Of a DNA stretch of 64,000 nucleotides, positions 6,910 to 54,798 are shown in pieces. The notes under the pieces are model-generated. The model had not been told where the DNA came from and did no database searches. It saw nothing but the letters and a program-made list of their open reading frames with translations. The stretch spans positions 2,505-66,504 of the forward strand of contig JAFNFQ010000026.1 of NCBI GenBank assembly GCA_017885655.1, written 5' to 3'. The first letter of the stretch is position 1; every line of letters begins with the position of its first letter. Position numbers and translations under genes: made by a program. Source of the DNA: Methanobacteriota archaeon (GTDB lineage Archaea; Thermoplasmatota; Thermoplasmata; RBG-16-68-12; JAFNFQ01).

Positions 6910-7373
6910 TTCTTCGCCTCCTTGAGGTGGCCCGCGGCCCTGATCTGTTGCTCGAGGTGCGCCTTGTTCTTGAACATCCCGCCCTTCGCCTGCATGTAGA
7001 GAATGCGGTAGGTGCTCTTGTCCACCTTGCCCTGCTCCTTCAGTTCCCGCAGTCTCTGTCTGAGAGGCCGGATTGTCCTGATCCATGCATCCTTCTTGGG
7101 CATCCGGGCTCGGGCCGCGCCCTGGCGTGTTCCGTGCCCCCTTCTGCGGCCTTTCGCCTTCTGCGCCGTTATGTAGTGCTTCCTTGCGCTCGAGATGCCC
7201 TTGACGGGAAGCTTGGCTATGGTACCCGATCGAATTGCCGTCCTTATGTCCGCCCTTGTGATTGCATCCTCAAGATCCTCGACCTTGTCAGGGTTCATCC
7301 AGACGCGGTGAATTCCGCACTTGAGCAGTTTTGCCGCCATTCGCCTCTGATTCCTAAGATCCACTCGAACCAC
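6906..7373 (-). CDS. rpl19e: 50S ribosomal protein L19e (eL19)
   Basis: DLRNQRRMAAKLLKCGIHRVWMNP… conserved L19e N-terminus. Arg/Lys-rich C-terminus. Confidence 0.9.
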   Translation of the reverse strand: MVRVDLRNQRRMAAKLLKCGIHRVWMNPDKVEDLEDAITRADIRTAIRSGTIAKLPVKGISSARKHYITAQKAKGRRRGHGTRQGAARARMPKKDAWIRTIRPLRQRLRELKEQGKVDKSTYRILYMQAKGGMFKNKAHLEQQIRAAGHLKEAKK

Positions 7374-10423: not shown

Positions 10424-10803
10424 TCTCTCTTCCCCAGGGACTCCAACTTGCCCTTTCTCCATGCGTCCGAATCGTCGATCTTCGTGATCATGACATTGGA
10501 TGGATGGATTTTCTTGGCGACCTGCTTCCCGTCCGCCTTCGCGTGGGTGATGCCCTCGATCGTGATTATGCCCCCGCGGTAGTCGACGGTCGCGACCTTC
10601 CCCTCCTTTCCCTTGTCGTCTCCCCTCATGATGTAGACCGTGTCGCCTTTCCTCACGGGAATTGCCCGCGGATAGACGGACTTCTCGTCCTCCAAGTACT
10701 TCGATGCCAGGTGTGCCGAGAGCATCTTGCGCCTCACATGGAGCGGCGCGTTGAACGCCCTCTTCCTCTGCTTCCTCGCCTTTATCGTCGCCATTTCTGT
10801 CAC
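10420..10803 (-). CDS. rpl24: 50S ribosomal protein L24 (uL24)
   Basis: KOW motif (RKGDTVYIMRGDDKGKEGKV), operon position. Confidence 0.85.
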   Translation of the reverse strand: MTEMATIKARKQRKRAFNAPLHVRRKMLSAHLASKYLEDEKSVYPRAIPVRKGDTVYIMRGDDKGKEGKVATVDYRGGIITIEGITHAKADGKQVAKKIHPSNVMITKIDDSDAWRKGKLESLGKRE

Positions 10804-11202
10804 CTAGACAATCATTTCCGCCGTGGCGGCTATCCTCGGCCACCTCTCCGCCGCTTCTCTCGCGACCGGACCTTTGATGTCCGATCCTTTCGTCTCACCT
10901 TCAGGCGTGATGATCACGCACGCGTTGTCATCGAACTGCACGATTGTTCCGTCTGGGCGCCTCCACGGTCTCCTCTGCCGGACTATGACCGCGTTGAAAA
11001 GCTGCTTGCGGGTCTCGGGCGTCCCCTTCTTGACTGTCACCACGAGGATGTCCGCCACCGCCGCGCTCGGCAGGCGGCGTCTCGTCCCGTGGTACTTGGG
11101 CACCTCCACGATCTCGACGATCTTGGCACCGGTGTTGTCGATGCAATCGAGCCTTGCCCCCTTCGGCAGACCCCTCGTTCGCCTTCCAGGGAGTCCCTTC
11201 AT
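10804..11202 (-). CDS. rpl14: 50S ribosomal protein L14 (uL14)
   Basis: Internal ATG 11200-11202 ([32 protein letters not shown]…), 132 aa. ATGA overlap with S17 stop. Confidence 0.9.
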
Positions 11203-11549
11203 GCGGTCGTCCCCCTCTTCTCGATGACAACGAACGAGACTGTCTTGCTGAGCGGCCGACACTCCATCAGTGTCACCTTATCGCCTTCCGCGAGGCCGAG
11301 GCACGGAGGGCTGTGCGCGCGCAGGCGCCTCGTTCTCTTCTCGAACCTCTCGTACTTGGTGATAGTCTTCATGTATTCCCTCTTAACGACGACGGTCTTG
11401 CCCATCTTCGTCGACACCACGACCCCACTCAGGATCTGGCCTCTCACGCTCAAGTTCCCATGGAATGGGCAGTGCTTGTCGTCGCAGGTCGCCTTGGGCG
11501 GGGCGACGTCGATTCCTATGTCCCTTGCTTTGCTGGTCTTCTTCGGCAA
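11199..11549 (-). CDS. rps17: 30S ribosomal protein S17 (uS17)
   Basis: …[44 protein letters not shown]…. Confidence 0.9.
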
Positions 11550-11553
11550 TTGC

Positions 11554-11805
11554 TCACCTCGCCCTCTTGATCCGCTCCTCTGGCCTGAACAGTATGTCCT
11601 CTCCGTGAACTTCGATTCCGCCGCGGATGTCGAACCGGAACAGTGCGCCCTTCTTCTGTACCATTTTCTCCTTTCCTTCCTTCTCGATGATTAGGGTCTT
11701 CATGGTCTCGTCCACCACGCGGCCCCTCAGCCCGGTTTGGCTGGGGTCCGTGGCCCCGATGACCTCGACATGAAGCCCGATCAGTTCTCCTTTCCTGATG
11801 CTCAC
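11554..11805 (-). CDS. rnp1: RNase P protein component 1 (Rpp29/Pop4 family)
   Basis: 83 aa, Sm-like fold signature (GLRGRVVDETMKTLIIEKEGKEKMVQKKGALFRF). Canonical position between SUI1/L29 and S17 in archaeal operons. Confidence 0.8.
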   Translation of the reverse strand: MSIRKGELIGLHVEVIGATDPSQTGLRGRVVDETMKTLIIEKEGKEKMVQKKGALFRFDIRGGIEVHGEDILFRPEERIKRAR

Positions 11806-11806
11806 A

Positions 11807-12106
11807 TCACCTTACCTCGGCGGTGAAACCCATCTCTTCCAGGGTCTGCTTGACCTTCTTGCGGTGCTCGCCCTGGAGCTCTATTTTTCCATCTTTCGCA
11901 GTCCCGCCAGCGGCGCACTTAGTCTTCAGCACACGGGCTAGTTCCTGCAGATCGATGTCGCTCGAGTCTATGCCCGCGACTATCGTCACCGTCTTCCCGT
12001 ACCGCCTCCTGTCGCTGTAGATCTTGATATGCTGCTGCTCGCGGGCGATCTCTTCACACATGCACAGCTCCTCTGGCAAACCGCAGACGGAGCAAATGCC
12101 GGGCAT
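11807..12106 (-). CDS. translation initiation factor SUI1 (aSUI1/eIF1 homolog)
   Basis: 99 aa, …[21 protein letters not shown]…[35 protein letters not shown]. Confidence 0.85.
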
Positions 12107-12348
12107 TATTTCGCTGCCTCCTTTGGCACTTTCTTCTCACCTCTGGTTCTTTTCTCCTCTTCCTTCATGATAGTGATCAGGCGGTTGATGCTCTTTCTGA
12201 GCGCGCGGATCTTTCCCGGGCTCGGCGGTGCGCCGCCCATCGCCGCCACGCCGCGCTCGTGCATCAGGTCGGTCCTCAGTTCCTTCAGCTTGGCGACTCT
12301 CGCCTCGGGGTCCATCTCCCGTATCTCGCGCGGCCTGATCAGAGTCAT
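12106..12348 (-). CDS. rpl29: 50S ribosomal protein L29 (uL29)
   Basis: 80 aa helical, [24 protein letters not shown]. Confidence 0.85.
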
Positions 12349-13223
12349 TACTTTGTCTCCTTCTTCTTCGTCTCGACATCCACGTCCATTTCCGTGCCGA
12401 GCTCCTTTGCTTCCCTGAGGACCTTTTTGAGCCTCTTCTCCGCGACTTTTCCGGTCTTGACCTTCTCCCCCTTCTCGTTCTTCCCTTCCTCCACCGTAGC
12501 GGAGGCGGGTTCGGTCGGGGGCTCAACCGGCTCGGGCATCTCGCCCGGAACCGGAGAGATTGGCGCGCCCTTGGCGGGCGGCGGTGCTTCCGTGGCGGCT
12601 GCCGTTTCCGCGGGTTGCGTGGGCAATTTCATCTCGAGCACTTCGATTTCGTCGGGGAGTTTCGCATTCGGGTCCATTATCTCCACGGTGACGCCGATTA
12701 CTCCCGGCTTCAGCTTGGCGATCGTGAAACCCTTTCTCATGAACAGGTTCCTCGGTTCCCCGCAGTATTTTATGTGGCCGGCCTTGAACTTCTGAGTCCT
12801 GTGGCGCTGGCTGGTGAGCTTGCCTGCGATGATGATCAAGCAGCCCTTCGCCCCTGCGTCCATTATCCGCCTGACTGTCGAGTGGCCAGCGCGGCGGAAA
12901 TGCCAACCCCTCTCAAGGGCGTTCGCGAGCTTCTCCGCCATGACCTGGGCGTTCAGCGAAGGGTTCTCGGTCTCCTGGACCTCTATCTGGGGGTTGTTGA
13001 ACTGGAACTTCGAGGAAACGGCCTCAGTCAAGGCCTTGATGGCCTCTCCCTTGCGGCCGATGATGAGACCCGGGCGCTCCGCTATGAGGGTAACCCTTGT
13101 CCCCATGGGTGTCCTCTGGATGTCCACGCCGCCGAAGCCGGCCCTCTGTGTCTCCTTCATGAGGTATTCCTTCAGCAGAACGCGCTTGATTTTATCGGCC
13201 ACGATCTTCCTTTCGCTCGCCAC
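12348..13223 (-). CDS. rps3: 30S ribosomal protein S3 (uS3) with P/E/K-rich C-terminal extension
   Basis: KH domain (…GRKGEAIKALTEAV…). Proposed GTG start at 13221-13223 (M-ASERKIVADKIKRVLLKEYL) overlapping the L22 TAG by 1 nt. The track start 13274 overlaps L22 by 50 nt. ~90-aa low-complexity tail. Confidence 0.85.
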   Translation of the reverse strand: MASERKIVADKIKRVLLKEYLMKETQRAGFGGVDIQRTPMGTRVTLIAERPGLIIGRKGEAIKALTEAVSSKFQFNNPQIEVQETENPSLNAQVMAEKLANALERGWHFRRAGHSTVRRIMDAGAKGCLIIIAGKLTSQRHRTQKFKAGHIKYCGEPRNLFMRKGFTIAKLKPGVIGVTVEIMDPNAKLPDEIEVLEMKLPTQPAETAAATEAPPPAKGAPISPVPGEMPEPVEPPTEPASATVEEGKNEKGEKVKTGKVAEKRLKKVLREAKELGTEMDVDVETKKKETK

Positions 13224-43248: not shown

Positions 43249-44448
43249 ATGCCCTCGCCCGTGAAGAAGTACCGCTTCGGTTGCTCCGGCTGGTCCTACG
43301 ACGAATGGATCGGCCCCTTCTACCGCTCCGAGTCCGAGAGCAAGCTGGAGGCCTACTCAAGGGTCTTCGACACCGTCGAGATCAACAGCACCTTCTACCG
43401 CCCCCCTGAGACAGGGATGGTCTACGGCTGGGCGAGGAACAGCCCCGAGGGGTTCGTCTTCGCCGCCAAGGTCCCCCAGACTGTCACTCACGACAAGCTG
43501 CTTGACGTGGAGAAGGGCGCCGCCACGGAGCTTGCGAACTACTGCGAACTGATGAGGCCCCTCCGCGACGCTGAGAAGCTCGGTCCGTTACTGCTGCAGC
43601 TCCCGCCACGCCTGCGGTTCGAGGCGAAGCACATCGACGCCTTCCTGAGCACCCTGCCTGACAGGTACCTGTTCGCCTTGGAGCCGAGGAACAAGTCGTG
43701 GATGGTCCCAGAGGCTTTCGACCTCCTCAGGAAGCACAATGTCGCGTACACGGTCGTGGACGAGCCCCTGCTCCCGGGCGATGTCCACGTCACCGCGGAT
43801 TTCTCGTACTTCCGCTGGCACGGGCACGGCGACCAGCCCTGGTACGACTACAGGTACAGCCTCGGCGAGCTCAAGGAGTGGGTCCCCAAGGTCGAGGACG
43901 CCGCCTCGAAGTCTGAGACGGTCTACGGATTCTTCAACAACCATTTCCACGGATACGCGCCGGAGAACTGCATCCAGATCCTCGAGATGCTCGGCGGCAT
44001 CGGGCCGGAGCAGCAGAAGGCGATGAAGCGAATCGAGGAGTTCAGGCACAGTTTCGCCATCGAGCGGCGGGGGTCGGGAAGAGGCGTGACCCTGGAGGAC
44101 TTCTCCGAGACACCGATTGCAGACCCGGAGCTTGACCCCATCCTTTCCAAGTTCCTCGGCAGTGCGAGACTGGACAGGGCGAAGCGGATTGCATCGACCG
44201 AGGTGAGCATCAACGACGAGGGGACCTCGATAGCGGCGAAGGTGAAAGACTACAGGATTACCCTCGACCTCTCAGCCAAGAGGATCGAGCACGACTGCGA
44301 CGACTGGGCGAAACGGATCGCGGGGAAGGAATTCTGCAAGCACGTCGGCAAGTTCTTCATAATGCTCCCGAGGGCGAGGGCTCTATCAATCCTGGAAGAG
44401 ATGAGGAAGGCCCTCGACGCGTGGACATTCGCCGTCAGAGAGGGCTAG
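43249..44448 (+). CDS. DUF72 (UPF0759) family protein with ~150-aa C-terminal extension; paralog of the 40400..41326 gene
   Basis: MPSPVKKYRFGCSGWSYDEWIGPFY…VFDTVEINSTFYRPP; 399 aa. Confidence 0.75.
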   Translation: MPSPVKKYRFGCSGWSYDEWIGPFYRSESESKLEAYSRVFDTVEINSTFYRPPETGMVYGWARNSPEGFVFAAKVPQTVTHDKLLDVEKGAATELANYCELMRPLRDAEKLGPLLLQLPPRLRFEAKHIDAFLSTLPDRYLFALEPRNKSWMVPEAFDLLRKHNVAYTVVDEPLLPGDVHVTADFSYFRWHGHGDQPWYDYRYSLGELKEWVPKVEDAASKSETVYGFFNNHFHGYAPENCIQILEMLGGIGPEQQKAMKRIEEFRHSFAIERRGSGRGVTLEDFSETPIADPELDPILSKFLGSARLDRAKRIASTEVSINDEGTSIAAKVKDYRITLDLSAKRIEHDCDDWAKRIAGKEFCKHVGKFFIMLPRARALSILEEMRKALDAWTFAVREG

Positions 44449-45194
44449 TACATCACCGAGCCGCCATTGACGAGCAACGTTGTCCCGGTTATCCAGTCCG
44501 AATCCTTCGACGCAAGGAAGCTGACCACTGCCGCGATGTCCTCCGGCTTTCCGATCCGCCTCAATGGAATCTCGCGAGCACGCTGCCTCTTCTTCTCCGG
44601 AGTATCTCCCGCCAGGATGTCTGTGTCGACGGGCCCGGGGGCAATCGCGTTGACCGTGACATTGTACCTCGCGAGCTCCTGAGCCGCCGCCTTCGTGAAG
44701 CCGAGGATGCCGGCCTTTGATGCTGCGTACTCGGAACCGTGGTCTGTGCCCTTGATGGCGATCTGGCTGGAGATGTTGATGATGCGACCCCAGCCCGCCC
44801 TCTTCAGATATGGCATGGCTGCCTTGGTGCAATAGAAGACGCTGCTGAGGTTCGTGGCGACCCTCCTGTCCCATTCTTCCGGGGTCAGCTTGTCGAGGAC
44901 AGTCCGCTCGTAGATGCCCGCATTGTTGACGAGGACGTCGATCCTGCCGAACGACCTGACCGCCGTCTCGATGAGGCGTCTCGCCTCTCGCCACCTCGAG
45001 ACGTCCGCCTTGACGGAGATCGCTTTGCGACCACTTGCCTCGATTGCGTCGACGACTTGTGCTGCCTGCTTGTTGCTCCGTACGTAGTTGACGACGACAT
45101 CGAAGCAATCGGCGGCAAGGCGAAGCGCCGTTGCTTTGCCGATTCCGCGCGAACTGCCCGTGATGAGCGCAATACCCGGCATCGATACCACCAA
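44445..45194 (-). CDS. SDR-family oxidoreductase (3-oxoacyl-ACP reductase-like)
   Basis: TGSSRGIGKA Rossmann motif, NNAG, catalytic Y-x3-K (YAASKAG), PGPVDTD. Confidence 0.85.
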   Translation of the reverse strand: MVVSMPGIALITGSSRGIGKATALRLAADCFDVVVNYVRSNKQAAQVVDAIEASGRKAISVKADVSRWREARRLIETAVRSFGRIDVLVNNAGIYERTVLDKLTPEEWDRRVATNLSSVFYCTKAAMPYLKRAGWGRIINISSQIAIKGTDHGSEYAASKAGILGFTKAAAQELARYNVTVNAIAPGPVDTDILAGDTPEKKRQRAREIPLRRIGKPEDIAAVVSFLASKDSDWITGTTLLVNGGSVMY

Positions 45195-45414: not shown

Positions 45415-45990
45415 GGCACCGCATTCTCCCGCATCGGAATCGAATCAGTCCGCATTTCCCCGAGCTTCGGGCGCGTTTTCCGGGCATCCGTCCGCGTTTT
45501 CCCCGACCTCGGGCGCATTGTCCCAGGCTTGTGGCGCATTCTCCGCGATTCCCTCCGCATCTTCCCCGGCTGTGTCCGCGTTCTCGTATATACGTAACAT
45601 TGCTCCCGGACTCGCTCCGCGTTTTCCCGGGACAGAGGCGCATGCGCCCAGACCTCGGGCGCATTTTCCGAAGAGCGGTCCGCATTTTCCCGAGCACGCT
45701 CCGCATGCGCCGGAAGTCCATTCGCATTTTCCCCGACACCGTCCGCATTTTTTCCGGTTATCGATGACTCTCCTCGCATCCGCCAAGATGCTCCGACGAT
45801 CGGTTCCGGTTTTCCGCGAGGAGGTCCGCATTTTCCCGGGCTCCGTCCGCATTGTCCGAGACGCCGTCTAAGTCTCTTCAAATCACTGACAGTCTTCTTC
45901 GCAACCGCTCGGATGCCATGATACTCGATTCAGATTCTCTGAAGGATTGTCCACGTTTTCCCGGATGCCCTCCGCGTTTTCCCGCCGACG
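45415..45990. repeat. degenerate tandem repeat array, ~20 copies of a 13-17 bp core (G)TCCGCATTTTCCC(G) with ~21-30 bp periodicity
   Basis: Seen directly (for example 45449-45461, 45490-45505, 45614-45630, 45678-45692, 45721-45735, 45741-45756, 45825-45840, 45846-45858, 45950-45963, 45971-45986). Occupies most of a ~900-bp intergenic space upstream of the SDR gene. ORFs across it encode repetitive GKMR/HFP strings on both strands (artifact). Confidence 0.7.
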
Positions 45991-46118: not shown

Positions 46119-47063
46119 TCACGATTCTCCGGTGAACTGTTGTATCACTCTTGCTTTCTTTCGGGGAGTCTGATAACCGAGACCGCTTCTGGAGAAGACC
46201 TTGACAATCGACGCCGAACACTTAGGACAAATCCTTGCGCCAGTCTCAGCGCGCACCTTCGGCATGTAGGAGCAACGCGTGCAATATTCCGTCCGTATGA
46301 AACCGAAAATCATGTTCAGATAAACCGTCGAGGTTCCATACGCAGGCATTTCCCGGTATCTCGGTGCGAACACGCCCGGGGGACTGAGAGAAAGCCCAAT
46401 TGCCTCACGGAAGCTATCGAACATCCGCTTCAACCTCTCCGCCTCCAGGCTCGCCAGTTCTTTCGATTCTGGAATCAGAGCGCGAAGATCCAGTCTTTTG
46501 AAGACCCAATTCGTGAAGAGCCCCTCATATGGAGATTCCCAGATGTCTCTCCGAAAGGAGAATTTCTCCAAGGGATGCAGGGCTGAGACATCGGCGTAGA
46601 AGTACTGGCCGTTGACAAATATGTCGTCAGGGCGCTTCCACGGAGTGTGAGCGAGAATCTGGGGAGGTCTAGGATCCAGCTCGATTGCGATGGGGATTTG
46701 CTGCCCGTCGACAGGGAGGAACCCTTTGGCGACGGGATGGAATGCGAAGCCGGACTTGCACAAGACCTGGGAAATCGCGATAGAATCATCCGACAAGAGA
46801 AAACGTTTGAACGTCACGTATCTGACGAGCTGTTGTCTCGTCTTGCGTATCATCCCTCCTGCAAGGGCAGCGCTGAATGCGAATGTGGTGCCGAAAAAGG
46901 AAGCAAGGAGGGCTCCATCTATGGCCGGATACATCATGGCACCAAGCATCACAGTTGCAGCTGCTGCGGCGGCGAGGATCCATACGAGAATCCGATAGAG
47001 CGAGAAGAGTCGCTCGCCCTCACTCCCAACTTCCTCGAGCCAATCCTCCAATACTGGCGGCAA
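46119..47063 (-). CDS. hypothetical membrane protein with C-terminal zinc-ribbon (CxxC…CxxC)
   Basis: N-terminal 2 TM (VWILAAAAAATVMLGAMMYPAIDGALLASFFG…). C-terminal CTRCSYMPKVRAETGARICPKCS. Confidence 0.5.
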   Translation of the reverse strand: MPPVLEDWLEEVGSEGERLFSLYRILVWILAAAAAATVMLGAMMYPAIDGALLASFFGTTFAFSAALAGGMIRKTRQQLVRYVTFKRFLLSDDSIAISQVLCKSGFAFHPVAKGFLPVDGQQIPIAIELDPRPPQILAHTPWKRPDDIFVNGQYFYADVSALHPLEKFSFRRDIWESPYEGLFTNWVFKRLDLRALIPESKELASLEAERLKRMFDSFREAIGLSLSPPGVFAPRYREMPAYGTSTVYLNMIFGFIRTEYCTRCSYMPKVRAETGARICPKCSASIVKVFSRSGLGYQTPRKKARVIQQFTGES

Positions 47064-48221: not shown

Positions 48222-51056
48222 CTACTTGATCCTCTCCAGAGCGAACGCCCCGATTATGAGCGTCTTGTTCGTCGCCTTGTACCCGACCCAGTCCCGCGAT
48301 TGAACATCTCCGAGCCCCGCCACGGAGAACATCATCTTGTTCCCCTCGGACTTGAAGAGAATCGCCCCGTCAGCCAAGTGCTCGAGCGTCTCTATCTGCT
48401 GGTCGGTGTGCATGCCCTTCTCCAGCGTCATGAAGCTCAATTCCTTCGTCTGCCTGAGGCGGTTGACCAGCTGCTGCACGAAACCGACAGCCTTGCTCTC
48501 CTCCGTGTGAGTTGTGCTAGAGGACAGCGTGATGTAGGCCAGGCGGAAGTACGGGTGCTTCTTCTCCTTGAACTCCGCGTCTAGGAGGTCGATGACATCG
48601 AGAATGTTGGCGAAGTCCGTTGCGCCGTTGACCCGGTAGACGGCCCCGTCCTTCTTCGGCTTCGAGCCTGCCGGCAGTGTCCCTGACGCGTCTATCCACC
48701 GCACAAGCCCGAGCTGCTCGTACTCGATGAACGAGGGCAGCACCGGAGCGATCTCTTTCGCGATCTCCACCGGCGGCTTCGTCGTCGTCACGATGATGGC
48801 GGGGGCTCCCTTTTTCAAACCCTCCGCTACGAAGTTGTAGAGCAGGACCTCCTTGCCGACGAAGGCCGGTCCGACCAGGAGGACGCTCGTGTTCATCCTC
48901 AGGCCTCCGAAGAACAGGTCGTCCAGGCGGGCGATGCCGGTCTTCAGCTTGCCCTCGGCCGCCGCCGCCTCCTCTGCAGGGGCAACTTCTTCCCCCGCCG
49001 CCACTGCCAGGGTGCGCTCCTTCTCCTTCAGAGCGGTCTCTAGCGCCTCCATCTCCTTCTCCTTCTGGTAGGCGCGCCTGCGCAGCTCCTCCTCCCTCTC
49101 GCGGAGGCGCTTCTCCCTCAGCTCCATGGCCTTCTCCCGCTCCTTGTCGACCATGCCCGCGATCGGCGCCTGAGAGAGCGCCTTCTCGCGCCTGTCGAGC
49201 TCCAATATCCTAAGCTGCAGATCACTCTCCCTCTGCTCAAGCTCCTTCTCGTGTTCGGCCAGCTTCCTGTTCTTCTCGTTCAGTCCCCTGACCTCCTTGC
49301 TCAAGTTCTCTGATATCGACTTGGCCTTCTGCCTCTCGCCGCCGACATCGCCCTGCTGCCTCTTCAGCTCCTCCTGCGCCGCCACGACCGCCGCCTCGGT
49401 CTCCTTAATCGACCTGAACAGCTTGGAGTACTCGGACTCCTTGAGGTTGAGCCTGTCCCTCTCGGCCTTGACAGCGTTGATCTGCTGCTCCATGTGCTGC
49501 GCTCTCTGGGTCATCGACGCCTCGAGGTCTGAGAGCTGCTTCTGCCTGATGACTAGATCCTTTTCCCTGTCGGACAACTGCAGCCTCTGCTGCTGCAGCC
49601 GCGCGTCGGACCTCAGCTGCTCGTCCGCCTTGGTCTTGGTGTCCTTGTCCAGTCTGCGGAGCTCGACATCGAGCTTCGCCAGGTCCCTCTCCTTCTTCAT
49701 CACCTTGTCTTCCCAGTCCTTGATCTCGCGAACCTTCGTCTCCTGGTCCTTCGAGAGCACCGCCTCGAGCTCCTCGATCTTCATCTGCATCTCGCTCTCC
49801 CTGAGCTCGATGTTCTTCTCCGACTGTATCGTGTCGTTCCTCCGCTTCTCGATCGCCTCTTCCTCGACCTTGAGCCTCCTCTCCGATTCCTCGGCGGCAG
49901 ACGCCCTCTCATCCGCCTTCCGCAGCTTCTCCGAGATGTCTATCTCCTGACGCCTGAGCTCCTTCTCGCGCTCGAGCATCTTCAGCTCGCGTTCCTTGAT
50001 CTCGTCCTTCAGGCGCTCGACCTCGTCCTCCCTCTCCTTGAACGACTTCTTCCTCAGTTCGAGCTCCTCGGCCTTCGTCTGGACATCCACCTTCATCACG
50101 CTGAGCTGCCTTTCCAGCCCCTTCAGCTCCTTCCACTGCGCTTCGTACTTGATGTTCAGCGCCTCGGCGGCCTTCGTCTTCTCCGCTATCTCGTCCTCGA
50201 GGCCCCTCAGCGCTTGTTCTCTGGAATCGAGATGGGACTCCTGGGCCCTCATCGCCTTCTCCTTGTAGTCGATCGCCTGCTGCCGCTTCTGGTACTCCTC
50301 GCGGAGGATGGCGAGGTGGGTGTCCCCCGCCTTGACTATCTCCCGCTCTTGGGCTTCCGTTGCGGTTGCGATGATGAGGAGGAGAGAGCCGCTCAGCTCG
50401 ATCAAGAGAGCCCCGAACAGGTAAGCGAGGACGAGCCAACCCGTGTCAGGCGTCTGCATGCTGGGCATCAGGGTGAACAGGAAGAACAGCGGGAGGACTG
50501 CCGCGCACACGATGCTCGCGACCTTCCGCCTGCTCCTGCCCTCCCAGGTGGCGGCGATGGAAGCGAGCGTTAAGGAGATTGGAAGGACGGAGACCGGATA
50601 GACCCATCCGACATAAGGCAGTACGAATTGCCCGGCCACATGGAGTATGACAAGCACGAGCATCAGCGCGGAGATGACAACGGCGAGCGCGGTGAGGATG
50701 AAGTGACCGGAGTTCTTGTGGCCCACATACGGCCTCCACTTCTGGATCACGAGGGATACTGAGATGGCGAGACCGACGATGAGCGCGATGAGCCAGAGGA
50801 AGTAACCCTGCGTGAGGAAGGGAATGTCCTGGAACCCTCCGAGGGGGCTGACAGTCGCAAGTATCGCGTTCAGAGCGAGGGCGAGGGCGGAGTAGATGCC
50901 GAACATCTGCGCGGTGCGGCCCAGGCTAAGCTGAAGGAGGGCGATCTTCGACGAGTCCGAGCGGAGCTTCACGTCCTCCGCCCTGGTCGACCGCTCAGCA
51001 AGCTCGCGCTCCTCCGTGTCCGACGCAGCTTCAGAAGTCTTTCTTCTGGCCATCAA
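48222..51056 (-). CDS. 944-aa protein: N-terminal polytopic membrane domain, ~500-aa E/K/R-rich coiled coil, C-terminal KaiC/RecA-like domain with degenerate Walker A (GPAFVGKE)
   Basis: ~6 TM (aa 50-250). Heptad-rich region (…LKDEIKERELKMLEREKELRRQE…). C-terminus LDDLFFGGLRMNTSVLLVGPAFVGKEVLLYNFVAEGLKKGAPAIIVTT matches the KaiC/RadA-like pattern but has Glu in place of the Ser/Thr after GK. Confidence 0.75.
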   Translation of the reverse strand: MMARRKTSEAASDTEERELAERSTRAEDVKLRSDSSKIALLQLSLGRTAQMFGIYSALALALNAILATVSPLGGFQDIPFLTQGYFLWLIALIVGLAISVSLVIQKWRPYVGHKNSGHFILTALAVVISALMLVLVILHVAGQFVLPYVGWVYPVSVLPISLTLASIAATWEGRSRRKVASIVCAAVLPLFFLFTLMPSMQTPDTGWLVLAYLFGALLIELSGSLLLIIATATEAQEREIVKAGDTHLAILREEYQKRQQAIDYKEKAMRAQESHLDSREQALRGLEDEIAEKTKAAEALNIKYEAQWKELKGLERQLSVMKVDVQTKAEELELRKKSFKEREDEVERLKDEIKERELKMLEREKELRRQEIDISEKLRKADERASAAEESERRLKVEEEAIEKRRNDTIQSEKNIELRESEMQMKIEELEAVLSKDQETKVREIKDWEDKVMKKERDLAKLDVELRRLDKDTKTKADEQLRSDARLQQQRLQLSDREKDLVIRQKQLSDLEASMTQRAQHMEQQINAVKAERDRLNLKESEYSKLFRSIKETEAAVVAAQEELKRQQGDVGGERQKAKSISENLSKEVRGLNEKNRKLAEHEKELEQRESDLQLRILELDRREKALSQAPIAGMVDKEREKAMELREKRLREREEELRRRAYQKEKEMEALETALKEKERTLAVAAGEEVAPAEEAAAAEGKLKTGIARLDDLFFGGLRMNTSVLLVGPAFVGKEVLLYNFVAEGLKKGAPAIIVTTTKPPVEIAKEIAPVLPSFIEYEQLGLVRWIDASGTLPAGSKPKKDGAVYRVNGATDFANILDVIDLLDAEFKEKKHPYFRLAYITLSSSTTHTEESKAVGFVQQLVNRLRQTKELSFMTLEKGMHTDQQIETLEHLADGAILFKSEGNKMMFSVAGLGDVQSRDWVGYKATNKTLIIGAFALERIK

Positions 51057-51137
51057 GGGGTCTCCTGACGAGGGGGAAGCCAGTCTGGACAGAAAGTGGC
51101 ATATCTCTACTTAAACGTTGATGAAGAATAGAATGCC

Positions 51138-52592
51138 TCATTGCCCTGCGGATATGAGCAAACCGGGGTCGTCGACCAGCAGGTAGTGCAATCTGCCGTC
51201 AGTCTCTCCCTCAAGCTTGACTATCCAGTCGCGGAGCCTCTTATCCGGGCTCTCTCCACTCTTTCCGATGAAGGCGATTGGCAGCATGACTTCATCCTTG
51301 GCGGTCAAGCCGTCCTGGATCAGGAGCAGGTGGCCCCAGCCGCACTTCCTCTCGGTAACGAGGAGGTCCACGGGCTTCTGCTTGCCTATCTTGAAGTCCC
51401 TCATGACGACCTCTTGGACCGCCAGGAGAGCTTTCTCCATTCCAGCATCGGATATCTTGTCCTTTTCACTCGTCTTTGCGGTCTTCAATCTCGCTGCCGT
51501 CTCCTGGAGGATCGGTGCACCCACCGCCATCAGTCCCTTGAACTCCTCGCTGCCCCATCCGTCGGTCAGCGGGGCCAGGACGACGATTCTCCCGCCAAGC
51601 TTCACCGCGTGCCTCGCAGAGTTGAACGCCTTGCCGGCCTGATAGAGGTCGATCCCTTCGTGGCGGGCGGCCATGATGACCACGTCGGCCAGCCGCGGGA
51701 TCTTGGCGGTGCTCACGCTGGCCAGGATGGGCTCGCCACGCCTGTGAGTCTCCAAGACATCACCGCCTGCGATGTGAACCAGCTTGTCATGAGCGTCCAC
51801 GACTGTCACAATGCCGTACAGCCAGCCGCCCTTCGCCTTGAGTGCCTTGTCTATGAAGTTGACGAGCTTGGTCTTGCACTCGTAGACGGGGTTGTGGCTG
51901 AGACTCCCCATCTCCACGTGCTCGGCGAACCCGACCTTGCCGAACATCTTGAGGTGCTCCCGGGTAATCGTGTTCTTCCCCGCCACGCCGGGTATCAATT
52001 GCTTAGGTCCCCCGCCCATTCCGGCGAAGTAATGGTAGTCCAGGTCGCTCAGTCCGATCAAGACCTCGGAAGCGTAGGCGGTTCTATTCAGCTCCACCGG
52101 GATGCCATCATCCAGCTTCCCAATCACCTCGACGCTCTTCACGCAATCGTGGTCCTCGACGACATCCTTGTAGGATTCCCAGACCTCCTTGCCGAAGATG
52201 TGGACGTACTCCTCGCCCTTCGCCGCCCTGTGCGTCCCATGTGCAATCAGCAGGCGGATCCTGTCGCGCTTGACGCCCATGGCCTGCAATCTCTCCAGGA
52301 GCAGGGGCAGGAGTATCCTCGTGTGGACGTTCGGGCGGGTGTGGTCGTCAACTATGATCGAGACGAGCCCGCCGTGATAGTGCTTCGTGAGTATCGTCCT
52401 CAGGTCTGGAACTTTGGCGGGAGTCTGGGATTTCGAGATTGCGTCGTCGAGGGCTTTTTCGATGTCCGCGATTTCCTTTGGCGCCTTCGGAAGCTCGATG
52501 GGAATCGTTCTTCCCTCGTCCACGATCTTCTTCGGGAGGAAGTCCTCGATCACGCGCTCGCCATAGTGAAGCCTGCCCGTGTACTCGCCCAT
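51138..52592 (-). CDS. LarA-like (lactate racemase family, DUF2088) protein
   Basis: 484 aa; …GGLVSIIVDDHTRP…LIAHGTHR…HYFAGMGGG… resembles the LarA N-terminal Ni-pincer binding domain. Assignment from motif memory. Confidence 0.6.
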   Translation of the reverse strand: MGEYTGRLHYGERVIEDFLPKKIVDEGRTIPIELPKAPKEIADIEKALDDAISKSQTPAKVPDLRTILTKHYHGGLVSIIVDDHTRPNVHTRILLPLLLERLQAMGVKRDRIRLLIAHGTHRAAKGEEYVHIFGKEVWESYKDVVEDHDCVKSVEVIGKLDDGIPVELNRTAYASEVLIGLSDLDYHYFAGMGGGPKQLIPGVAGKNTITREHLKMFGKVGFAEHVEMGSLSHNPVYECKTKLVNFIDKALKAKGGWLYGIVTVVDAHDKLVHIAGGDVLETHRRGEPILASVSTAKIPRLADVVIMAARHEGIDLYQAGKAFNSARHAVKLGGRIVVLAPLTDGWGSEEFKGLMAVGAPILQETAARLKTAKTSEKDKISDAGMEKALLAVQEVVMRDFKIGKQKPVDLLVTERKCGWGHLLLIQDGLTAKDEVMLPIAFIGKSGESPDKRLRDWIVKLEGETDGRLHYLLVDDPGLLISAGQ

Positions 52593-52695
52593 GCACTCAC
52601 CTCTGTGGCTGATGCGTCGCGAAACAACTCGCTCGCCATATTTAAGGGGTGCGAGTGCCCGGGAACGGCAGTCGCGGATAACCCAACCCCAATCT

Positions 52696-52702
52696 CTTAT
52701 AT
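52696..52702 (+). promoter_or_regulatory. TATA box (CTTATAT) for thyX
   Basis: ~30 nt upstream of ATG 52731. Divergent from the larA-like gene, whose own TATA-like CATATTTAAGG is at ~52636-52648. Confidence 0.35.
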
Positions 52703-52730
52703 CGCGTGGCGGGATTCACCGCCCGATATC

Positions 52731-53507
52731 ATGACCGCCGAGGGGAAGGGACATTCCGAGCCCCGAATCATCAGGAAGCCCACGGTCCAGCTCATCGCAT
52801 GGACAGACTTCAGAAAGCCGCAGGACATTGATTGGACCACTGACACCAAGGTCCCCGCCGAGCAGCTCATCGAGATGGCGGGGAGGCAGTGCTACGAATC
52901 GTGGACCAACCCCGCCGGCAAGACCAACGCGGAGTATGTCGCGAACATGCTCGACCACGGCCACCTAAGCGTCATCGAGCATGGCACCGCCACGTTCCGC
53001 TTCACCGGCGTGAGCAGATCATTCACCCACGAGCTGGTCCGCCACCGCCTATTCTCATATTCCCAGCTCTCGCAGCGGTTCGTCTCTGAGACCGATGCCG
53101 CTTTCATCGAGCCGGACGTGATTGCCAACGACCCGAAGGCGCACGAGATCTTCGTGAAATCCATAGAGCAGTCCCGCCAGGCCTACACCCAACTGAACGA
53201 GATCCTCAAGACCAAGTTCGACGGCCTGCAGGACAAGACGCTAAAGAGGAAGAAGGCGAGGGAGGCGGCCAGGGCCGTTCTGCCCAATGCCACCGAGACG
53301 AAGATTGTCGTCACGGGCAACTTCAGGGCTTGGCGGCATTTCGTGAGGCTTCGCTCAGCCGAGCACACAGACGTGGAAATCAGGGCTGTGGCAATCGCCG
53401 TGCTCCGACAGCTCAACAAGCTCGCTCCCGCGATATTCGGGGACTTCGAGATCTACAAGGGCCCCGATGGCCTTGAGTGCGCGCGCACCAAGCACGTCTT
53501 CGAGTGA
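52731..53507 (+). CDS. thyX: FAD-dependent thymidylate synthase ThyX
   Basis: RHRxxxxxxxS motif (ELVRHRLFSYSQLSQRF), 258 aa. The N-terminal 530 codons of track ORF 51141..53507 are antisense to larA and are rejected. Confidence 0.9.
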   Translation: MTAEGKGHSEPRIIRKPTVQLIAWTDFRKPQDIDWTTDTKVPAEQLIEMAGRQCYESWTNPAGKTNAEYVANMLDHGHLSVIEHGTATFRFTGVSRSFTHELVRHRLFSYSQLSQRFVSETDAAFIEPDVIANDPKAHEIFVKSIEQSRQAYTQLNEILKTKFDGLQDKTLKRKKAREAARAVLPNATETKIVVTGNFRAWRHFVRLRSAEHTDVEIRAVAIAVLRQLNKLAPAIFGDFEIYKGPDGLECARTKHVFE

Positions 53508-53511
53508 GTGC

Positions 53512-54798
53512 TCAGCCGATGTAGTCTTGCTCTCCCTCGGCGCGGTCGAGCAGCTCGCGTGCAAGATCGTATCTCGGATTGAGCTCCAGCGCTTTGTCCA
53601 GCTCTCTCTTCGCCATTTGGCCCATCCCCTTCATCAGGTACACGCGCCCGAGATTGCAGTGCGCGTAGCAGTAGCAGCAGTATCTCTCTGATTCCAATGC
53701 CCTTTGTAGCCACTCCACCGCCTCGTCCAGCCGTCCAAGTTCTATGAGGTATGCCCCTATGTCGTTGTAGGGGTTCCCGAGGGTCGAGTCGACTTCGATT
53801 GCCCTCTTGCACTCCTCGATAGCCTCCTCGTACCGACCGTCGAAGCTCAGCCGCCATCCCAAGAATGTGTGCGCCTCGGCAGAGGGGATGATCCTCAGGG
53901 AGGCCTTGTAAAGGTCTTCCGCGTCCTCCAAGTAGCCCATTGTCTGGTACAGGTACGCGGCATGGAATGCCTTCACGGCGCTCATCTTCTGCTTGTCCTT
54001 CCCGCCATGGCGGACGAGATCGAGCGGGCCGTCCTCGAAGGTCTCCTTCACCAGCTCCGCCACATTCGCCTCCTTCTCAGCGGTGAACTTGCCAGTCCAG
54101 ACGTGGCTCACTATGTCCTCCAGGCCGAGGACTCTGGAAACGTCGATGTCCATTGCGATCTCGCCACCTCGAGGACCCGCCATCGGACCTATCAATCGCA
54201 TGTCGCCGAAGAGGATTTCGAGGAAATCGTCGCCACTGCGCACGTGCCTTGCGAGCGCGAGCCCTTCGGGCCCGCCCCTGCTGACGACGAAACCGAGTTC
54301 CGAGACTTGGGGAAGGATGTCCTTGGGCGTCAATTCGTCCGCAAGAAGAAGGACTCGGGTGTACGTCGATGATTTCGCCATGAACGCATAGAGGCTCATC
54401 ACCTCTACGGCCTCCGAAAACCCCGCCCTCTCGAGATTCTTCAAGACGGCTTCCTCGTCGCTCAGATCGAACTCGACGGCCGTCACGGAGCCCTTTCGAC
54501 CGATCGTGGCTGCGATTGCAGCCGCAACGTAGCCGCCCCGGGAATCTATCACTGCGACACGCTGCCCCTGCGTCAATTCCAGCGCCTCGAGCAGCAGCGC
54601 CATGAACCTGACCGAGGGGACGAATCTCCCGGTGTCGCCGCACTTGCACGGGAGCGGCGCATCGCAATCGCCGAGGGCCTCAAGCTCCGGCGGAAGGAAT
54701 GCGCTGCGGCGGACTGACCTGAGCGCTGACTCTGCGGCCCGGTTCTTGAGGAGTTTGATACCCTTCAGCCTGTGGAACAGTCGCTCCTTCGAATCCAT
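53512..54798 (-). CDS. protein-L-isoaspartate O-methyltransferase-like (degenerate) domain fused to C-terminal TPR repeats
   Basis: N-terminus ALRSVRRSAFLPPEL…MALLLEALELTQGQRVAVIDSRGGYVAAAIAATIG… parallels PIMT, but the SAM-binding GxGxG and substrate loop are altered. C-terminal ~150 aa has TPR-like helices (AYLYQTMGYLEDAEDLYKASLRI…). Confidence 0.55.
   Translation of the reverse strand: MDSKERLFHRLKGIKLLKNRAAESALRSVRRSAFLPPELEALGDCDAPLPCKCGDTGRFVPSVRFMALLLEALELTQGQRVAVIDSRGGYVAAAIAATIGRKGSVTAVEFDLSDEEAVLKNLERAGFSEAVEVMSLYAFMAKSSTYTRVLLLADELTPKDILPQVSELGFVVSRGGPEGLALARHVRSGDDFLEILFGDMRLIGPMAGPRGGEIAMDIDVSRVLGLEDIVSHVWTGKFTAEKEANVAELVKETFEDGPLDLVRHGGKDKQKMSAVKAFHAAYLYQTMGYLEDAEDLYKASLRIIPSAEAHTFLGWRLSFDGRYEEAIEECKRAIEVDSTLGNPYNDIGAYLIELGRLDEAVEWLQRALESERYCCYCYAHCNLGRVYLMKGMGQMAKRELDKALELNPRYDLARELLDRAEGEQDYIG

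What the first reader, a model, noticed from the sequence alone, without database searches (positions are those of the whole stretch)
48222..51056. Membrane-anchored, 500-residue coiled-coil protein ending in a KaiC/RecA-like pseudo-ATPase domain
The architecture (~6 TM + very long E/K/R coiled coil + C-terminal KaiC-like fold with Walker A GPAFVGKE, i.e. Glu in place of Ser/Thr) does not match a family I can name. KaiC/RadA-like domains with a degenerate P-loop often act as signalling or scaffolding modules. Tethering one to the membrane by a coiled-coil stalk suggests a cytoskeletal or envelope-spanning signalling role.
Basis: partly seen in the sequence, partly recalled or inferred. Interest (0 to 1): 0.6.

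Follow-up and report, generated by a model that had tools for sequence, protein, structure and literature searches.

The report
Membrane-anchored coiled-coil stalk with dead KaiC domain
This is a real, conserved but uncharacterised protein family of uncultured Thermoplasmata archaea: a six-helix membrane anchor, a very long and length-invariant helical stalk in the cytoplasm, and a KaiC-like end domain that has lost every catalytic ATPase residue yet keeps an invariant remodelled nucleotide loop, so it most likely acts as a tether or signalling scaffold, not an enzyme.

Summary
The ORF at 48222-51056 (-) encodes a 943/944-aa protein with a charged N-tail, 6 TM helices, about 450 residues of heptad-periodic helix and a C-terminal KaiC-like domain (Pfam PF06745; AF2 pLDDT 93; Foldseek top hits PH0284 and KaiC). 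It is not an orphan: at least 164 species-level genomes, nearly all uncultured Thermoplasmata MAGs, encode it with the same architecture. In 79 of 79 aligned members the Walker A reads G-x-x-F-x-G-K-E. The Walker B Asp position is L/M/F/I (T in one member), and the catalytic Glu-Glu is [STA]-[RKH]. The positive-inside rule puts the stalk and end domain in the cytoplasm, so it does not span the envelope. The stalk is two Gly/Pro-poor rods with no indels over 190 residues. Its repeat is L-x-x-[RK]-E-x-[ED], with a single hydrophobic position per heptad, which favours parallel pairing. The TM module is private to the family, apart from fusions to an OppC-type permease. A paralogue fuses the same GKE domain to a cNMP-binding domain between two cyclase genes. 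The larA-like and thyX neighbours are not conserved. Best reading: a non-catalytic, membrane-anchored dimeric tether presenting a pseudo-KaiC binding or signal-output module. It is a new variant of the known inactivated-KaiC kind. Function is inferred, not shown.

The parts
51108..51115 (-). Archaeal TATA-box-like element TTTAAGTA, 55-62 nt upstream of the ATG. It lies in the 82-nt gap after the larA-like stop codon.
   Evidence: Read directly from the sequence. This is a consensus resemblance only, with no functional test.
48222..51056 (-). Whole ORF: 944 aa from TTG 51056, with the likely true start at ATG 51053 (943 aa). Stop codon TAG at 48222-48224.
   Evidence: GGAG at 51062-51065 lies 8 nt before the ATG.
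50916..51056 (-). Cytoplasmic N-terminal tail, aa 1-47. It is basic and charged, and ends in the conserved juxtamembrane motif A-L-L-Q-L-x-x-G-R (aa 39-47).
   Evidence: Alignments A1 and A5. Mean K+R is 10.4 across 79 members. The AF2 model shows a helix continuous with TM1.
50361..50915 (-). Family-private 6-TM module, aa 48-232. Conserved residues: K106-W107, H118-F119, W171, S222-G223-S224.
   Evidence: Only 82 hits among 1.84e9 representative proteins. No significant structural match in the PDB.
49767..50360 (-). Rod 1, aa 233-430: 27 uninterrupted heptads of L-x-x-[RK]-E-x-[ED]. No indels across 79 species.
49725..49766 (-). Hinge 1, aa 431-444: a break in heptad phase, Gly/Pro/Ala-rich or deleted in many members.
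   Evidence: 13.4 G+P per 100 aa, against 3.7 and 2.7 in the rods.
49197..49724 (-). Rod 2, aa 445-620: the second heptad run with the same repeat. Its indels come in units of 7 or 14 residues.
   Evidence: hhalign of rod 1 against rod 2 gives probability 98%, which may reflect shared periodic composition only.
48981..49196 (-). Hinge 2 (aa ~621-640) plus a variable linker (aa 641-692). The linker is helical in the window's subclade and Ala/Pro/Gly-rich in others. It ends at the invariant Pro693.
   Evidence: Segment length ranges from 37 to 107 residues.
48225..48980 (-). KaiC-like (RecA-fold) pseudo-ATPase domain, aa 693-944.
   Evidence: Pfam PF06745. AF2 pLDDT 93.4. Foldseek hits to PH0284, KaiC and FlaH.
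48849..48872 (-). Remodelled Walker A G729-P-A-F-V-G-K-E736. G729, G734, K735 and E736 are invariant and F732 is present in 78 of 79.
48777..48788 (-). T757-T-T-K760, the position of KaiC's T-F-E-E. The catalytic Glu pair is replaced by [STA]-[RKH].
48522..48545 (-). Walker-B-equivalent strand R838-L-A-Y-I842-T-L-S. The Asp position (842) is L57/M11/F8/I2/T1 of 79.
48225..48251 (-). Invariant C-terminal tail G-[SA]-F-[SA]-L-E-R-I-[RK]-COOH, aa 936-944.
   Evidence: 79 of 79 members. The last residues have low pLDDT.

Best explanation
The gene encodes a non-catalytic, membrane-anchored tether or scaffold.

Shown:
- A family-private 6-TM module (N-in, C-in) anchors the protein in the cytoplasmic membrane.
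- From TM6 a stalk of about 390 residues extends into the cytoplasm. It consists of two rods (about 190 and 175 residues) joined by a hinge.
- A second hinge and a variable linker lead to a single KaiC/RecA-fold domain.
- That domain lacks the Walker A Thr, the Walker B Asp and both catalytic Glu in every member. Its P-loop (GxxFxGKE) and its C-terminal tail (FxLERI[RK]) are nevertheless invariant.

Inferred:
- The single Leu stripe, flanked by Arg/Lys on one side and Glu on the other, zips two or more chains in parallel and in register. That would give a hinged rod of roughly 55-60 nm.
- The end domain does not hydrolyse ATP. Its conserved pocket and tail serve as a ligand- or partner-binding surface, for a nucleotide without turnover, another KaiC-like protein, or another client.
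- The protein thereby recruits or positions something at a fixed distance from the membrane, or relays a membrane-derived state to it.
- The GKE domain is the output end: one lineage has replaced the TM and stalk with a cNMP-binding domain inside a cyclase gene pair.
For: - Architecture and conservation: 11 full-length clusters; 164 species genomes with 80 loci fetched, nearly all Thermoplasmata MAGs; lengths 851-1046 aa.
- Pseudo-ATPase status. In FlaH, a Walker B D-to-N mutation already strongly reduces nucleotide binding (PMC5019145).
- Fold.
- Topology: K+R per loop is 10.4 / 1.75 / 2.14 / 3.28 on the inside against 0.49 / 0.49 / 0.27 on the outside; 6 TM helices in the AF2 model.
- Stalk: no indels over aa 223-413 in 78-79 of 79 members, and heptad-quantised indels elsewhere; a hydrophobic column every 7 residues; hinges; repeat composition with R/K at +3 and E at +4. 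By standard coiled-coil geometry (established knowledge: g-e' pairing in parallel, g-g' and e-e' in antiparallel), a parallel pair puts R next to E'.
- Modularity: cNMP_binding plus the GKE domain sits between two Guanylate_cyc genes. The TM module plus a disordered linker plus a more degenerate domain occurs in short variants, so membrane tethering of the domain is the conserved theme.
- Other: its own promoter-like element, housekeeping synteny (SecY-Cmk-Cbf5) in many loci, and no defence-system match.
Against: - There is no experimental datum for any member.
- Oligomeric state and parallel orientation are inferred from residue patterns only. No multimer model could be run.
- The two rods are nearly equal in length with a central hinge, which is also what a fold-back hairpin would look like.
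- An invariant Lys and an invariant Glu in the P-loop could mean that nucleotide (even Mg-nucleotide) binding is retained, in which case 'pseudo' applies to hydrolysis only.
- No conserved partner gene exists across the whole family. The one recurrent operon-like neighbour, a class I methyltransferase, is absent from the window.
- The short variants show that the rigid stalk is dispensable for whatever the TM-plus-domain pair does in that sister group.
Confidence: 0.5

Rival explanations
1. Sub-membrane skeleton. The KaiC-like domains assemble into rings, as PH0284 and KaiC do. Each ring gathers several stalks whose TM modules are spread in the membrane, forming a lattice that shapes or stiffens the membrane of these mostly wall-less archaea.
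For: The closest structural relatives are hexameric rings (PMC5019145). Stalk length is extremely conserved, as expected for a structural spacer. The family is class-wide and embedded in housekeeping synteny. The TM module occurs as up to 4 tandem copies in OppC-fusion proteins, which suggests it packs side by side in the membrane.
Against: In RecA-like rings the nucleotide sits at the subunit interface, and here the nucleotide site is remodelled. The strand where KaiC carries K-x-R-G reads x-G-[LIVF]-G (this correspondence is inferred, not aligned). No oligomer prediction was possible. The cNMP-binding paralogue points to signalling and not to structure.
Confidence: 0.15
2. Transmembrane signal transducer of the chemoreceptor or histidine-kinase type. 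The 6-TM module senses a membrane or external cue, and the stalk (as a hairpin or four-helix bundle) transmits a conformational change to the KaiC-like output domain. In many lineages this could be tuned by methylation from the adjacent methyltransferase.
For: The two rods are of similar length with a central hinge. A class I methyltransferase lies immediately upstream on the same strand in 34 of 63 loci, ending within 70 bp of the gene in 28 of 38. A few stalk Glu residues are more than 95% conserved. The cNMP-binding paralogue shows the domain can sit behind a sensor.
Against: No HAMP, MCPsignal or HisKA domain was detected. The charge pattern (R on one flank, E on the other, the same in both rods) would give like-charge contacts in an antiparallel hairpin. 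Indels in rod 2 are not matched in rod 1. The short variants replace the stalk with a Pro-rich disordered linker, which cannot transmit a conformational signal. The methyltransferase is generic and not CheR-like, and it is absent from the window. External loops are only 8-14 residues long, which leaves little room for a ligand site.
Confidence: 0.15
3. Membrane tether for the chromosome or another nucleic acid. The RecA/RadA-like domain has kept nucleic-acid binding but lost ATPase activity, and it anchors DNA at a set distance from the membrane.
For: The fold belongs to the RecA/RadA/KaiC superfamily, and NCBI labels it 'RAD55 family ATPase'. A divergent paralogue (P0092, L084) lies behind an ORF with a helix-hairpin-helix-like N-terminus. 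FEN-1 is the convergent neighbour in the window.
Against: The best matches are KaiC and PH0284, not RadA or RecA. FEN-1 linkage occurs in only 3 loci. No DNA-binding loop motif was identified. The L084 assembly is frameshift-prone.
Confidence: 0.08
4. A still-active, non-canonical ATPase or kinase. Glu736 takes over Mg2+ coordination from the missing Walker A Thr and Walker B Asp, and the conserved Arg/Lys760 acts on the gamma-phosphate.
For: Absolute conservation of G729, G734, K735 and E736, with F732 in 78 of 79 and a basic residue at 760 in 78 of 79, argues for a functional pocket and not a decaying one.
Against: No general base remains, since both catalytic Glu are replaced. Walker B Asp loss alone cripples nucleotide binding in FlaH. 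The sister short variants have lost even the Lys (EEPGEGGD) yet keep the rest of the domain, so catalysis is not what the fold is conserved for.
Confidence: 0.07

Closest known systems
Stand-alone archaeal KaiC-like proteins (PH0284 / PDB 2dr3, PH0186, SSO2452; Pfam PF06745)
   Same: Single RecA-like domain with the same fold (Foldseek E 8e-15, TM 0.75-0.81). The N-terminal 'TGxxxLDxxLxGG' motif and the P-loop Lys are retained.
   Different: Those proteins have canonical GxxGxGKT, Walker B Asp and catalytic Glu, are about 240 aa, soluble and hexameric. This family has T->E, D->hydrophobic and EE->[STA][RKH], and adds about 690 N-terminal residues (6 TM plus stalk).
Inactivated KaiC-like domains ('iKaiC') of archaeal signal-transduction proteins (Makarova, Galperin & Koonin 2017, cited in PMC5847659); Pfam DUF7504, DUF7090, MEDS
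   Same: KaiC-derived domain with disrupted ATPase motifs, fused to other modules and proposed to act as a signalling hub. 56 of 66 members also match DUF7504, 30 match DUF7090 and 7 match MEDS.
   Different: The fusions described there are to REC, PAS, HalOD1 or HTH-type modules, mostly in haloarchaea and methanogens. No 6-TM plus long-stalk architecture or GKE P-loop is described in the papers I could read. The window protein scores below the DUF7504 gathering threshold (23-25 bits against 27). The 2017 paper itself could not be read.
ArlX(FlaX)/ArlH(FlaH) of the crenarchaeal archaellum motor
   Same: A membrane-anchored coiled-coil scaffold (FlaX: N-terminal TM plus coiled coil) works with a KaiC-like protein that binds but does not hydrolyse ATP (FlaH) (PMC5019145). 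Functionally, this family looks like the two fused into one chain. FlaH (4yds) is among the structural hits.
   Different: FlaH keeps Walker A GK[ST] and the Walker B Asp. The NCBIfam FlaH model scores 14-18 bits against a cut-off of 194. No archaellum genes are nearby. FlaX has 1 TM and a short triple-helix coiled coil.
Circadian KaiC
   Same: Same domain family. KaiC is among the best sequence and structure hits.
   Different: KaiC has two tandem active domains, autokinase sites and KaiA/KaiB partners. The equivalog models score 19-35 bits against cut-offs of 408-546. This protein has a single dead domain.
Elp4/5/6 (PAXNEB) RecA-like pseudo-ATPase ring
   Same: A RecA-fold domain that has lost ATPase motifs and serves as a binding platform. 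A weak PAXNEB match is seen in 33 of 66 members.
   Different: Elp4/5/6 is eukaryotic, soluble and a hetero-hexamer, with no membrane anchor or stalk. The similarity is at fold level only.
Membrane-anchored long coiled-coil proteins (RNase Y N-terminal region PF12072, EzrA, golgin-type tethers)
   Same: A TM anchor followed by a long charged helical stalk that carries a functional head. One family fragment matches PF12072 in precomputed Pfam hits (P0122).
   Different: Those proteins have a single TM helix and different heads (KH/HD nuclease, FtsZ-binding). There is no homology beyond coiled-coil composition. The SMC model hits are compositional (about 21 bits against a cut-off of 567).

Membership tests
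KaiC/RecA-like domain superfamily (Pfam PF06745 'ATPase/KaiC') | RecA-like alpha/beta fold detectable by the family profile | tested here: met
   54.6-59.8 bits against a gathering cut-off of 26.6. AF2 pLDDT 93.4. Foldseek E 8e-15 to 2dr3.
KaiC/RecA-like domain superfamily (as active ATPases) | Walker A GxxxxGK[ST] | tested here: not met
   GxxFxGKE, with Glu at the S/T position in 79 of 79 members.
KaiC/RecA-like domain superfamily (as active ATPases) | Walker B hhhhD | tested here: not met
   The profile alignment puts the Asp at position 842, which is L57/M11/F8/I2/T1 of 79.
KaiC/RecA-like domain superfamily (as active ATPases) | Catalytic Glu pair after strand 2 (KaiC T-F-E-E) | tested here: not met
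   T-[TA]-[STA]-[RKH] at 757-760.
KaiC/RecA-like domain superfamily | Hexameric ring assembly | not testable with these tools
Circadian KaiC (TIGR02655 / NF006799) | Two tandem KaiC domains scoring above the equivalog cut-off | tested here: not met
   19-35 bits against cut-offs of 546 and 408. Only a single domain is present.
ArlH/FlaH (NF004723) | Score above the family cut-off, intact Walker A and Walker B Asp, and an arl operon context | tested here: not met
   14-17.8 bits against a cut-off of 194. The motifs are lost. No arl genes appear among the recurrent neighbours.
Inactivated KaiC-like domain proteins ('iKaiC') | KaiC-family domain with disrupted ATPase motifs, fused to non-ATPase modules | tested here: met
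   The definition is taken from PMC5847659. The founding paper could not be read.
Pfam DUF7504 | Score at or above the gathering threshold (27 bits) | tested here: inconclusive
   The window protein scores 23-25 bits, below the cut-off. However, 56 of 66 relatives match at E <= 1e-4, with a best E of 2.7e-16.
Chemoreceptor-like hairpin transducers (MCP) | HAMP or MCPsignal domains and an antiparallel hairpin | tested here: not met
   No such Pfam hit. The charge pattern disfavours antiparallel pairing; that second point is an inference.
SMC | N- and C-terminal ABC head halves, a hinge domain, and a score above the cut-off | tested here: not met
   17.6-20.9 bits against cut-offs of 567-729, and the matches fall in the coiled-coil region only.
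Known anti-phage defence proteins (PADLOC-DB) | Match to any PADLOC model | tested here: not met
   0 families at E <= 0.01.

The most novel reading that the evidence does not exclude
A class-wide archaeal 'ruler-tether'. Parallel dimeric stalks of fixed length (27 invariant heptads plus a second rod, about 55-60 nm) hang from a private 6-TM anchor. They end in ring-forming pseudo-KaiC hubs whose remodelled P-loop (Glu taking the place of the Mg-coordinating Thr and Asp) senses a nucleotide without hydrolysing it. The result would be a switchable sub-membrane lattice or docking layer in wall-less Thermoplasmata, a cytoskeleton-like system built from a clock-protein fold.
Probability: 0.12. Interest if true: 0.8.

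Novelty: new variant of a known kind. Interest (0 to 1): 0.5.

Why it matters
KaiC-like proteins are proposed to be the main archaeon-specific signalling hubs, yet almost none have been studied outside clocks and the archaellum. This family is present in at least 164 species of a class with few cultured members. It combines three unusual features:

- a membrane module found almost nowhere else;
- a stalk whose length has not changed by a single residue over 190 positions despite about 70% sequence divergence;
- a dead ATPase whose 'dead' P-loop is nevertheless invariant.

If the end domain is a nucleotide-sensing or partner-binding hub held at a fixed distance from the membrane, it would be a new way of organising the archaeal cytoplasm or relaying membrane state. 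It would also give a tractable model for how pseudo-ATPase P-loops are repurposed. If the protein is merely a scaffold with no switch, it is still a useful marker gene and a clean natural example of a single-stripe, charge-zippered coiled coil.

Tried and rejected
tblastn of all window ORFs against 80 loci shows these neighbours only in the 95%-identical L001. Rejected.
- **De novo neighbourhood clustering.** Recurrent neighbours are housekeeping genes: a class I methyltransferase, an MBL/beta-CASP-like exonuclease, Cbf5, Cmk, SecY, a 2-hydroxyacid dehydrogenase and DUF998. Only the methyltransferase is operon-like. It is generic, not CheR-like, and absent from the window.
- **Aligning the C-terminal third to solved KaiC to test the K-x-R-G (Arg-finger) motif.** phmmer found nothing relevant, so that correspondence stays an inference from strand order.
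- **Reading Makarova et al. 2017 (mBio e01959-17).** Not held in the library.
- **Shorter 'coiled-coil plus GKE domain' proteins as soluble isoforms.** P0045 is a frameshift-broken full-length gene. P0092 may be a genuine divergent paralogue, but its assembly is error-prone.
- **Defence-system membership.** No PADLOC hit.
- **SMC, FlbB and PEP-CTERM hits in NCBIfam.** All are far below cut-off and confined to the coiled-coil or TM composition. Rejected.
- **Paralogues in the window.** None for either domain.
- **Rod 1 versus rod 2 internal duplication.** hhalign gives probability 98%, but I do not trust this for periodic low-complexity helices. Left open.


Full report

The ORF 48222..51056 on the minus strand is present and encodes 944 aa from a TTG. 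The second codon is ATG (51053). It is preceded by GGAG 8 nt upstream and by a TTTAAGTA box at 51108-51115, within the 82-nt gap after the larA-like stop. Public gene calls use the ATG form of 943 aa (P0001, 100% identical).

High-GC genomes throw up long spurious ORFs. The 788-aa ORF on the opposite strand at 51141-53507 is one example. This ORF is a genuine gene: it has full-length homologues down to 28% identity, and a scan of one genome per species found 164 species that encode a relative.

**2. Anatomy**

*N-terminal tail and TM module.*
- A basic, charged tail (aa 1-47) ends in a conserved juxtamembrane motif A-L-L-Q-L-x-x-G-R.
- Hydropathy and an AF2 model (pLDDT 82, pTM 0.72) give six TM helices at 48-69, 85-107, 117-140, 152-169, 176-196 and 205-232.
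- Across 79 species, Lys+Arg average 10.4 in the N-tail, 1.75 in loop 2, 2.14 in loop 4 and 3.28 after TM6. The odd loops average 0.49, 0.49 and 0.27.
- By the positive-inside rule (established knowledge) the topology is N-in/C-in.

*The stalk (aa ~233-692).*
- It is 54% E/K/R/D/Q with two Pro. The single-sequence heptad score is 0.426 against 0.243 +/- 0.02 for shuffles.
- Family-wide, a conserved hydrophobic column recurs every 7 residues from aa 241 to 430, which is 27 heptads without a stutter.
- The segment from the TM6 SGS motif to E273 is 50 residues in 78 of 79 species. E273 to E413 is 140 residues in 79 of 79, so there are no indels at about 28-40% identity.
- After a break at 431-444 (13.4 Gly+Pro per 100 aa, against 3.7 and 2.7 in the rods), a second heptad run extends to about 620. 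Its length variants differ by 7 or 14 residues: segment 512-610 is either 91 or 98.
- A second Gly/Pro-rich hinge (621-640) and a variable linker of 37-107 residues lead to an invariant Pro693.

*The repeat is not a textbook a/d coiled coil.* Only one position per heptad is hydrophobic (LIVMF 0.86 in rod 1 and 0.77 in rod 2, half of it Leu). Position +3 is Arg/Lys (0.56-0.60), +4 is Glu (about 0.40) and +6 is Glu/Asp. On a helical wheel this is a single Leu stripe with a basic flank and an acidic flank.

*Orientation (inference).* By the standard geometry of two-stranded coiled coils (parallel: opposite flanks meet; antiparallel: like flanks meet), parallel in-register pairing gives R-E' contacts on both sides. 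Folding rod 2 back on rod 1 would give R-R' and E-E'. I therefore favour a parallel homo-oligomer. At about 0.148 nm per residue this is two rods of about 28 and 26 nm. No multimer model could be run, and the near-equal rod lengths keep the hairpin alternative alive.

*The C-terminal domain (aa 693-944).*
- It matches Pfam KaiC (PF06745, 54.6-59.8 bits against a cut-off of 26.6).
- It models with pLDDT 93.4 and pTM 0.90.
- Its closest solved structures are PH0284 (2dr3; E 8e-15, TM 0.75-0.81), the KaiC CI/CII domains and FlaH.

*Catalytic motifs.* Single-sequence and profile alignments to KaiC and PH0284 give these correspondences:

| KaiC-family motif | This family | Frequency |
|---|---|---|
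| Walker A GTSGTGKT | G729-P-A-F-V-G-K-E736 | G729, G734, K735, E736 in 79/79; F732 in 78/79 |
| Catalytic T-F-E-E | T757-T-T-K760 | position 759 S51/A15/T11; position 760 R50/K17/H11 |
| Walker B R-V-V-I-D-S | R838-L-A-Y-I842-T | position 842 L57/M11/F8/I2/T1 |

The loop itself is under absolute constraint.

*C-terminal features.* The strand where KaiC-family proteins carry K-x-R-G reads x-G-[LIVF]-G. That correspondence rests on strand order only, because sequence alignment failed there. The extreme C-terminus G-[SA]-F-[SA]-L-E-R-I-[RK] is invariant in 79 of 79.

**3. Distribution and variants**

*Distribution.* The 80 best loci are almost all 'Thermoplasmata', 'Thermoplasmatota', 'Methanobacteriota' or 'Euryarchaeota' MAGs. 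One record is labelled 'bacterium'. No cultured organism is named. Source names are generic: 'KaiC/GvpD/RAD55 family RecA-like ATPase', 'RAD55 family ATPase' or hypothetical.

*The TM module.* A profile of the TM module, searched exhaustively against 1.84 billion representative proteins, found 82 hits. Nearly all are 850-970-aa proteins or fragments of them. There are two exceptions:
- P0197, P0203 and P0205 (549-575 aa) have the TM module, a Pro-rich disordered linker and a still more degenerate KaiC-like domain. Their P-loop reads EEPGEGGD or GEAGIGTE, and the LERI tail is missing.
- P0159, P0194 and P0207 have TM2-TM6 of the module, in one to four copies, fused to an OppC-type ABC permease.

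*The GKE domain.* Conversely, the GKE domain occurs once with a different front end. P0043 (403 aa) is cNMP_binding plus the GKE domain. It sits between two Guanylate_cyc-TPR genes on an 823-kb contig.

*Apparent short forms.* Shorter 'coiled coil plus GKE domain' proteins are at least partly artefacts. P0045 is a frameshift-broken full-length gene. P0092 may be a divergent soluble paralogue with Walker-B-like 'VFES', but its assembly is error-prone.

**4. Genomic context**

The window's neighbours are FEN-1 (convergent, 18 bp away), a larA-like gene (upstream, same strand), thyX, a PCMT-TPR gene and DUF72. They accompany the gene only in L001, which is 95% identical.

De novo clustering of neighbours over 80 loci found housekeeping genes. 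Many loci place the gene beside the SecY-Cmk-Cbf5 end of the ribosomal super-operon, which suggests a vertically inherited core gene.

The one operon-like partner is a class I SAM methyltransferase immediately upstream on the same strand. It is present in 34 of the 63 loci with enough upstream sequence: 23 of 23 in the 'GD...GKE' subclade and 8 of 36 in the window's 'GP...GKE' subclade. It ends within 70 bp of the gene in 28 of 38 loci. It is generic and not CheR-like, and it has no homologue in the window.

There is no PADLOC match, no paralogue of either domain in the window, and no Rfam family or tRNA in the window.

**5. How it most likely works**

Shown: the architecture, the cytoplasmic location, the loss of catalytic residues, the invariance of the P-loop and tail, the length invariance of the stalk, and the modularity of both end domains.

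Inferred:
- Parallel dimerisation through the Leu stripe with R/E zippers.
- No ATP hydrolysis. By analogy, FlaH with a Walker B D-to-N mutation already loses most nucleotide binding (PMC5019145).
- The invariant pocket and C-terminal tail form a binding surface for a ligand or partner.
- The protein holds that surface at a defined reach from the membrane, or couples it to membrane state.

The cNMP-binding paralogue inside a cyclase pair indicates that the GKE domain is the output end of a signalling arrangement. This agrees with the proposal that KaiC-family domains, including inactivated ones, are archaeal signalling hubs (PMC5847659). The stalk-less sister group indicates that membrane tethering of the domain is the ancestral theme and that the rigid ruler is a later elaboration.

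The rivals are listed with their tests in the structured fields: a sub-membrane lattice with ring hubs, an MCP-like hairpin transducer tuned by the methyltransferase, a nucleic-acid tether, and a non-canonical active ATPase.

**6. Comparison with known systems**

It is a member of the KaiC/RecA-like domain superfamily by fold and profile. It fails every catalytic-motif test, so it should be filed with the inactivated KaiC-like ('iKaiC') domains and not with KaiC, ArlH or RadA.

In function it most resembles a one-chain version of the FlaX (membrane coiled-coil scaffold) plus FlaH (non-hydrolysing KaiC-like protein) pair. It is not a member of either family, given the NCBIfam scores, the motif states and the gene context.

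I found no description of this architecture, of the private 6-TM module or of the GKE P-loop in the searchable literature. The key 2017 survey could not be read, so prior mention there cannot be excluded.

**7. Verdict**

Novelty: a new variant of a known kind. Interest is moderate (0.5). This is a class-wide, sharply defined, completely unstudied family with an unusually constrained stalk and a repurposed P-loop, but its function is inferred only from sequence and context.

Noticed in passing
window 45418-45983 (+): The ~900-bp gap between the SDR gene (44445-45194, -) and ORF 46119-47063 (-) holds a degenerate 21-nt-period array with core TCCGCATTTTCCC. 12 of the 14 window matches (<=2 mismatches) lie here, all on one strand, against 1.75 expected by chance in the whole window. 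All six frames are open across it. There is no Rfam or tRNA hit. Its nature is unknown; it could be a protein-binding array or an origin-like element.
   Followed up: partly
P0159, P0194, P0207: TM2-TM6 of the family's private membrane module occurs in one to four tandem copies fused to an OppC-type ABC permease (OppC_N + BPD_transp_1). So the module is an independent, repeatable membrane domain with no Pfam model.
   Followed up: partly
P0197, P0203, P0205: A stalk-less sister group of 549-575 aa has the same TM module, a Pro-rich disordered linker and a KaiC-like domain that has lost even the Walker A Lys (EEPGEGGD / GEAGIGTE) and the LERI tail.
   Followed up: partly
L081 8001-9212 (P0043), with flanks 5974-7866 and 10785-12707: A cNMP-binding domain is fused to the same GKE-type KaiC-like domain, and the gene is flanked on both sides by adenylate/guanylate-cyclase-TPR genes. 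This looks like a compact cyclic-nucleotide signalling cassette.
   Followed up: partly
L001-L080, immediately upstream of the family gene (e.g. L069 8989-9966): A class I SAM methyltransferase of about 325 aa, with a basic Pro-rich N-terminus, lies upstream on the same strand in 34 of 63 loci and usually ends <=70 bp before the gene. It is absent from the window. It is a possible functional partner of unknown substrate.
   Followed up: partly
L084 2635-5029: A divergent paralogue (P0092: GPAHSGKE, Walker-B-like 'VFES') follows an ORF with a helix-hairpin-helix-like N-terminus, a Pro-rich linker and a coiled coil, with no TM module. The contig is frameshift-prone (SHMT is split), so the two ORFs may be one gene.
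   Followed up: partly
window 51141-53507 (+): This 788-aa ORF is a chimera. Its first ~500 codons are the antisense shadow of the larA-like gene (51138-52592, -). Only the 3' part (to 53507) looks like a real thyX, with a VRHRLFSYSQLSQRF signature read from the translation.
   Followed up: no
window 46119-47063 (-): A 314-aa predicted membrane protein with a C-terminal CxxC...CxxC zinc-ribbon-like motif. It has no family in Pfam (only a sub-threshold Auto_anti-p27 hit), NCBIfam or PADLOC.
   Followed up: no
window 53512-54798 (-) and 51138-52592 (-): A protein-L-isoaspartate-O-methyltransferase-like domain is fused to TPR repeats (428 aa). Separately, the larA-like gene has a strong Lar_N match, but its LarA_C match is below threshold (19.6 bits against 25).
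   Followed up: no
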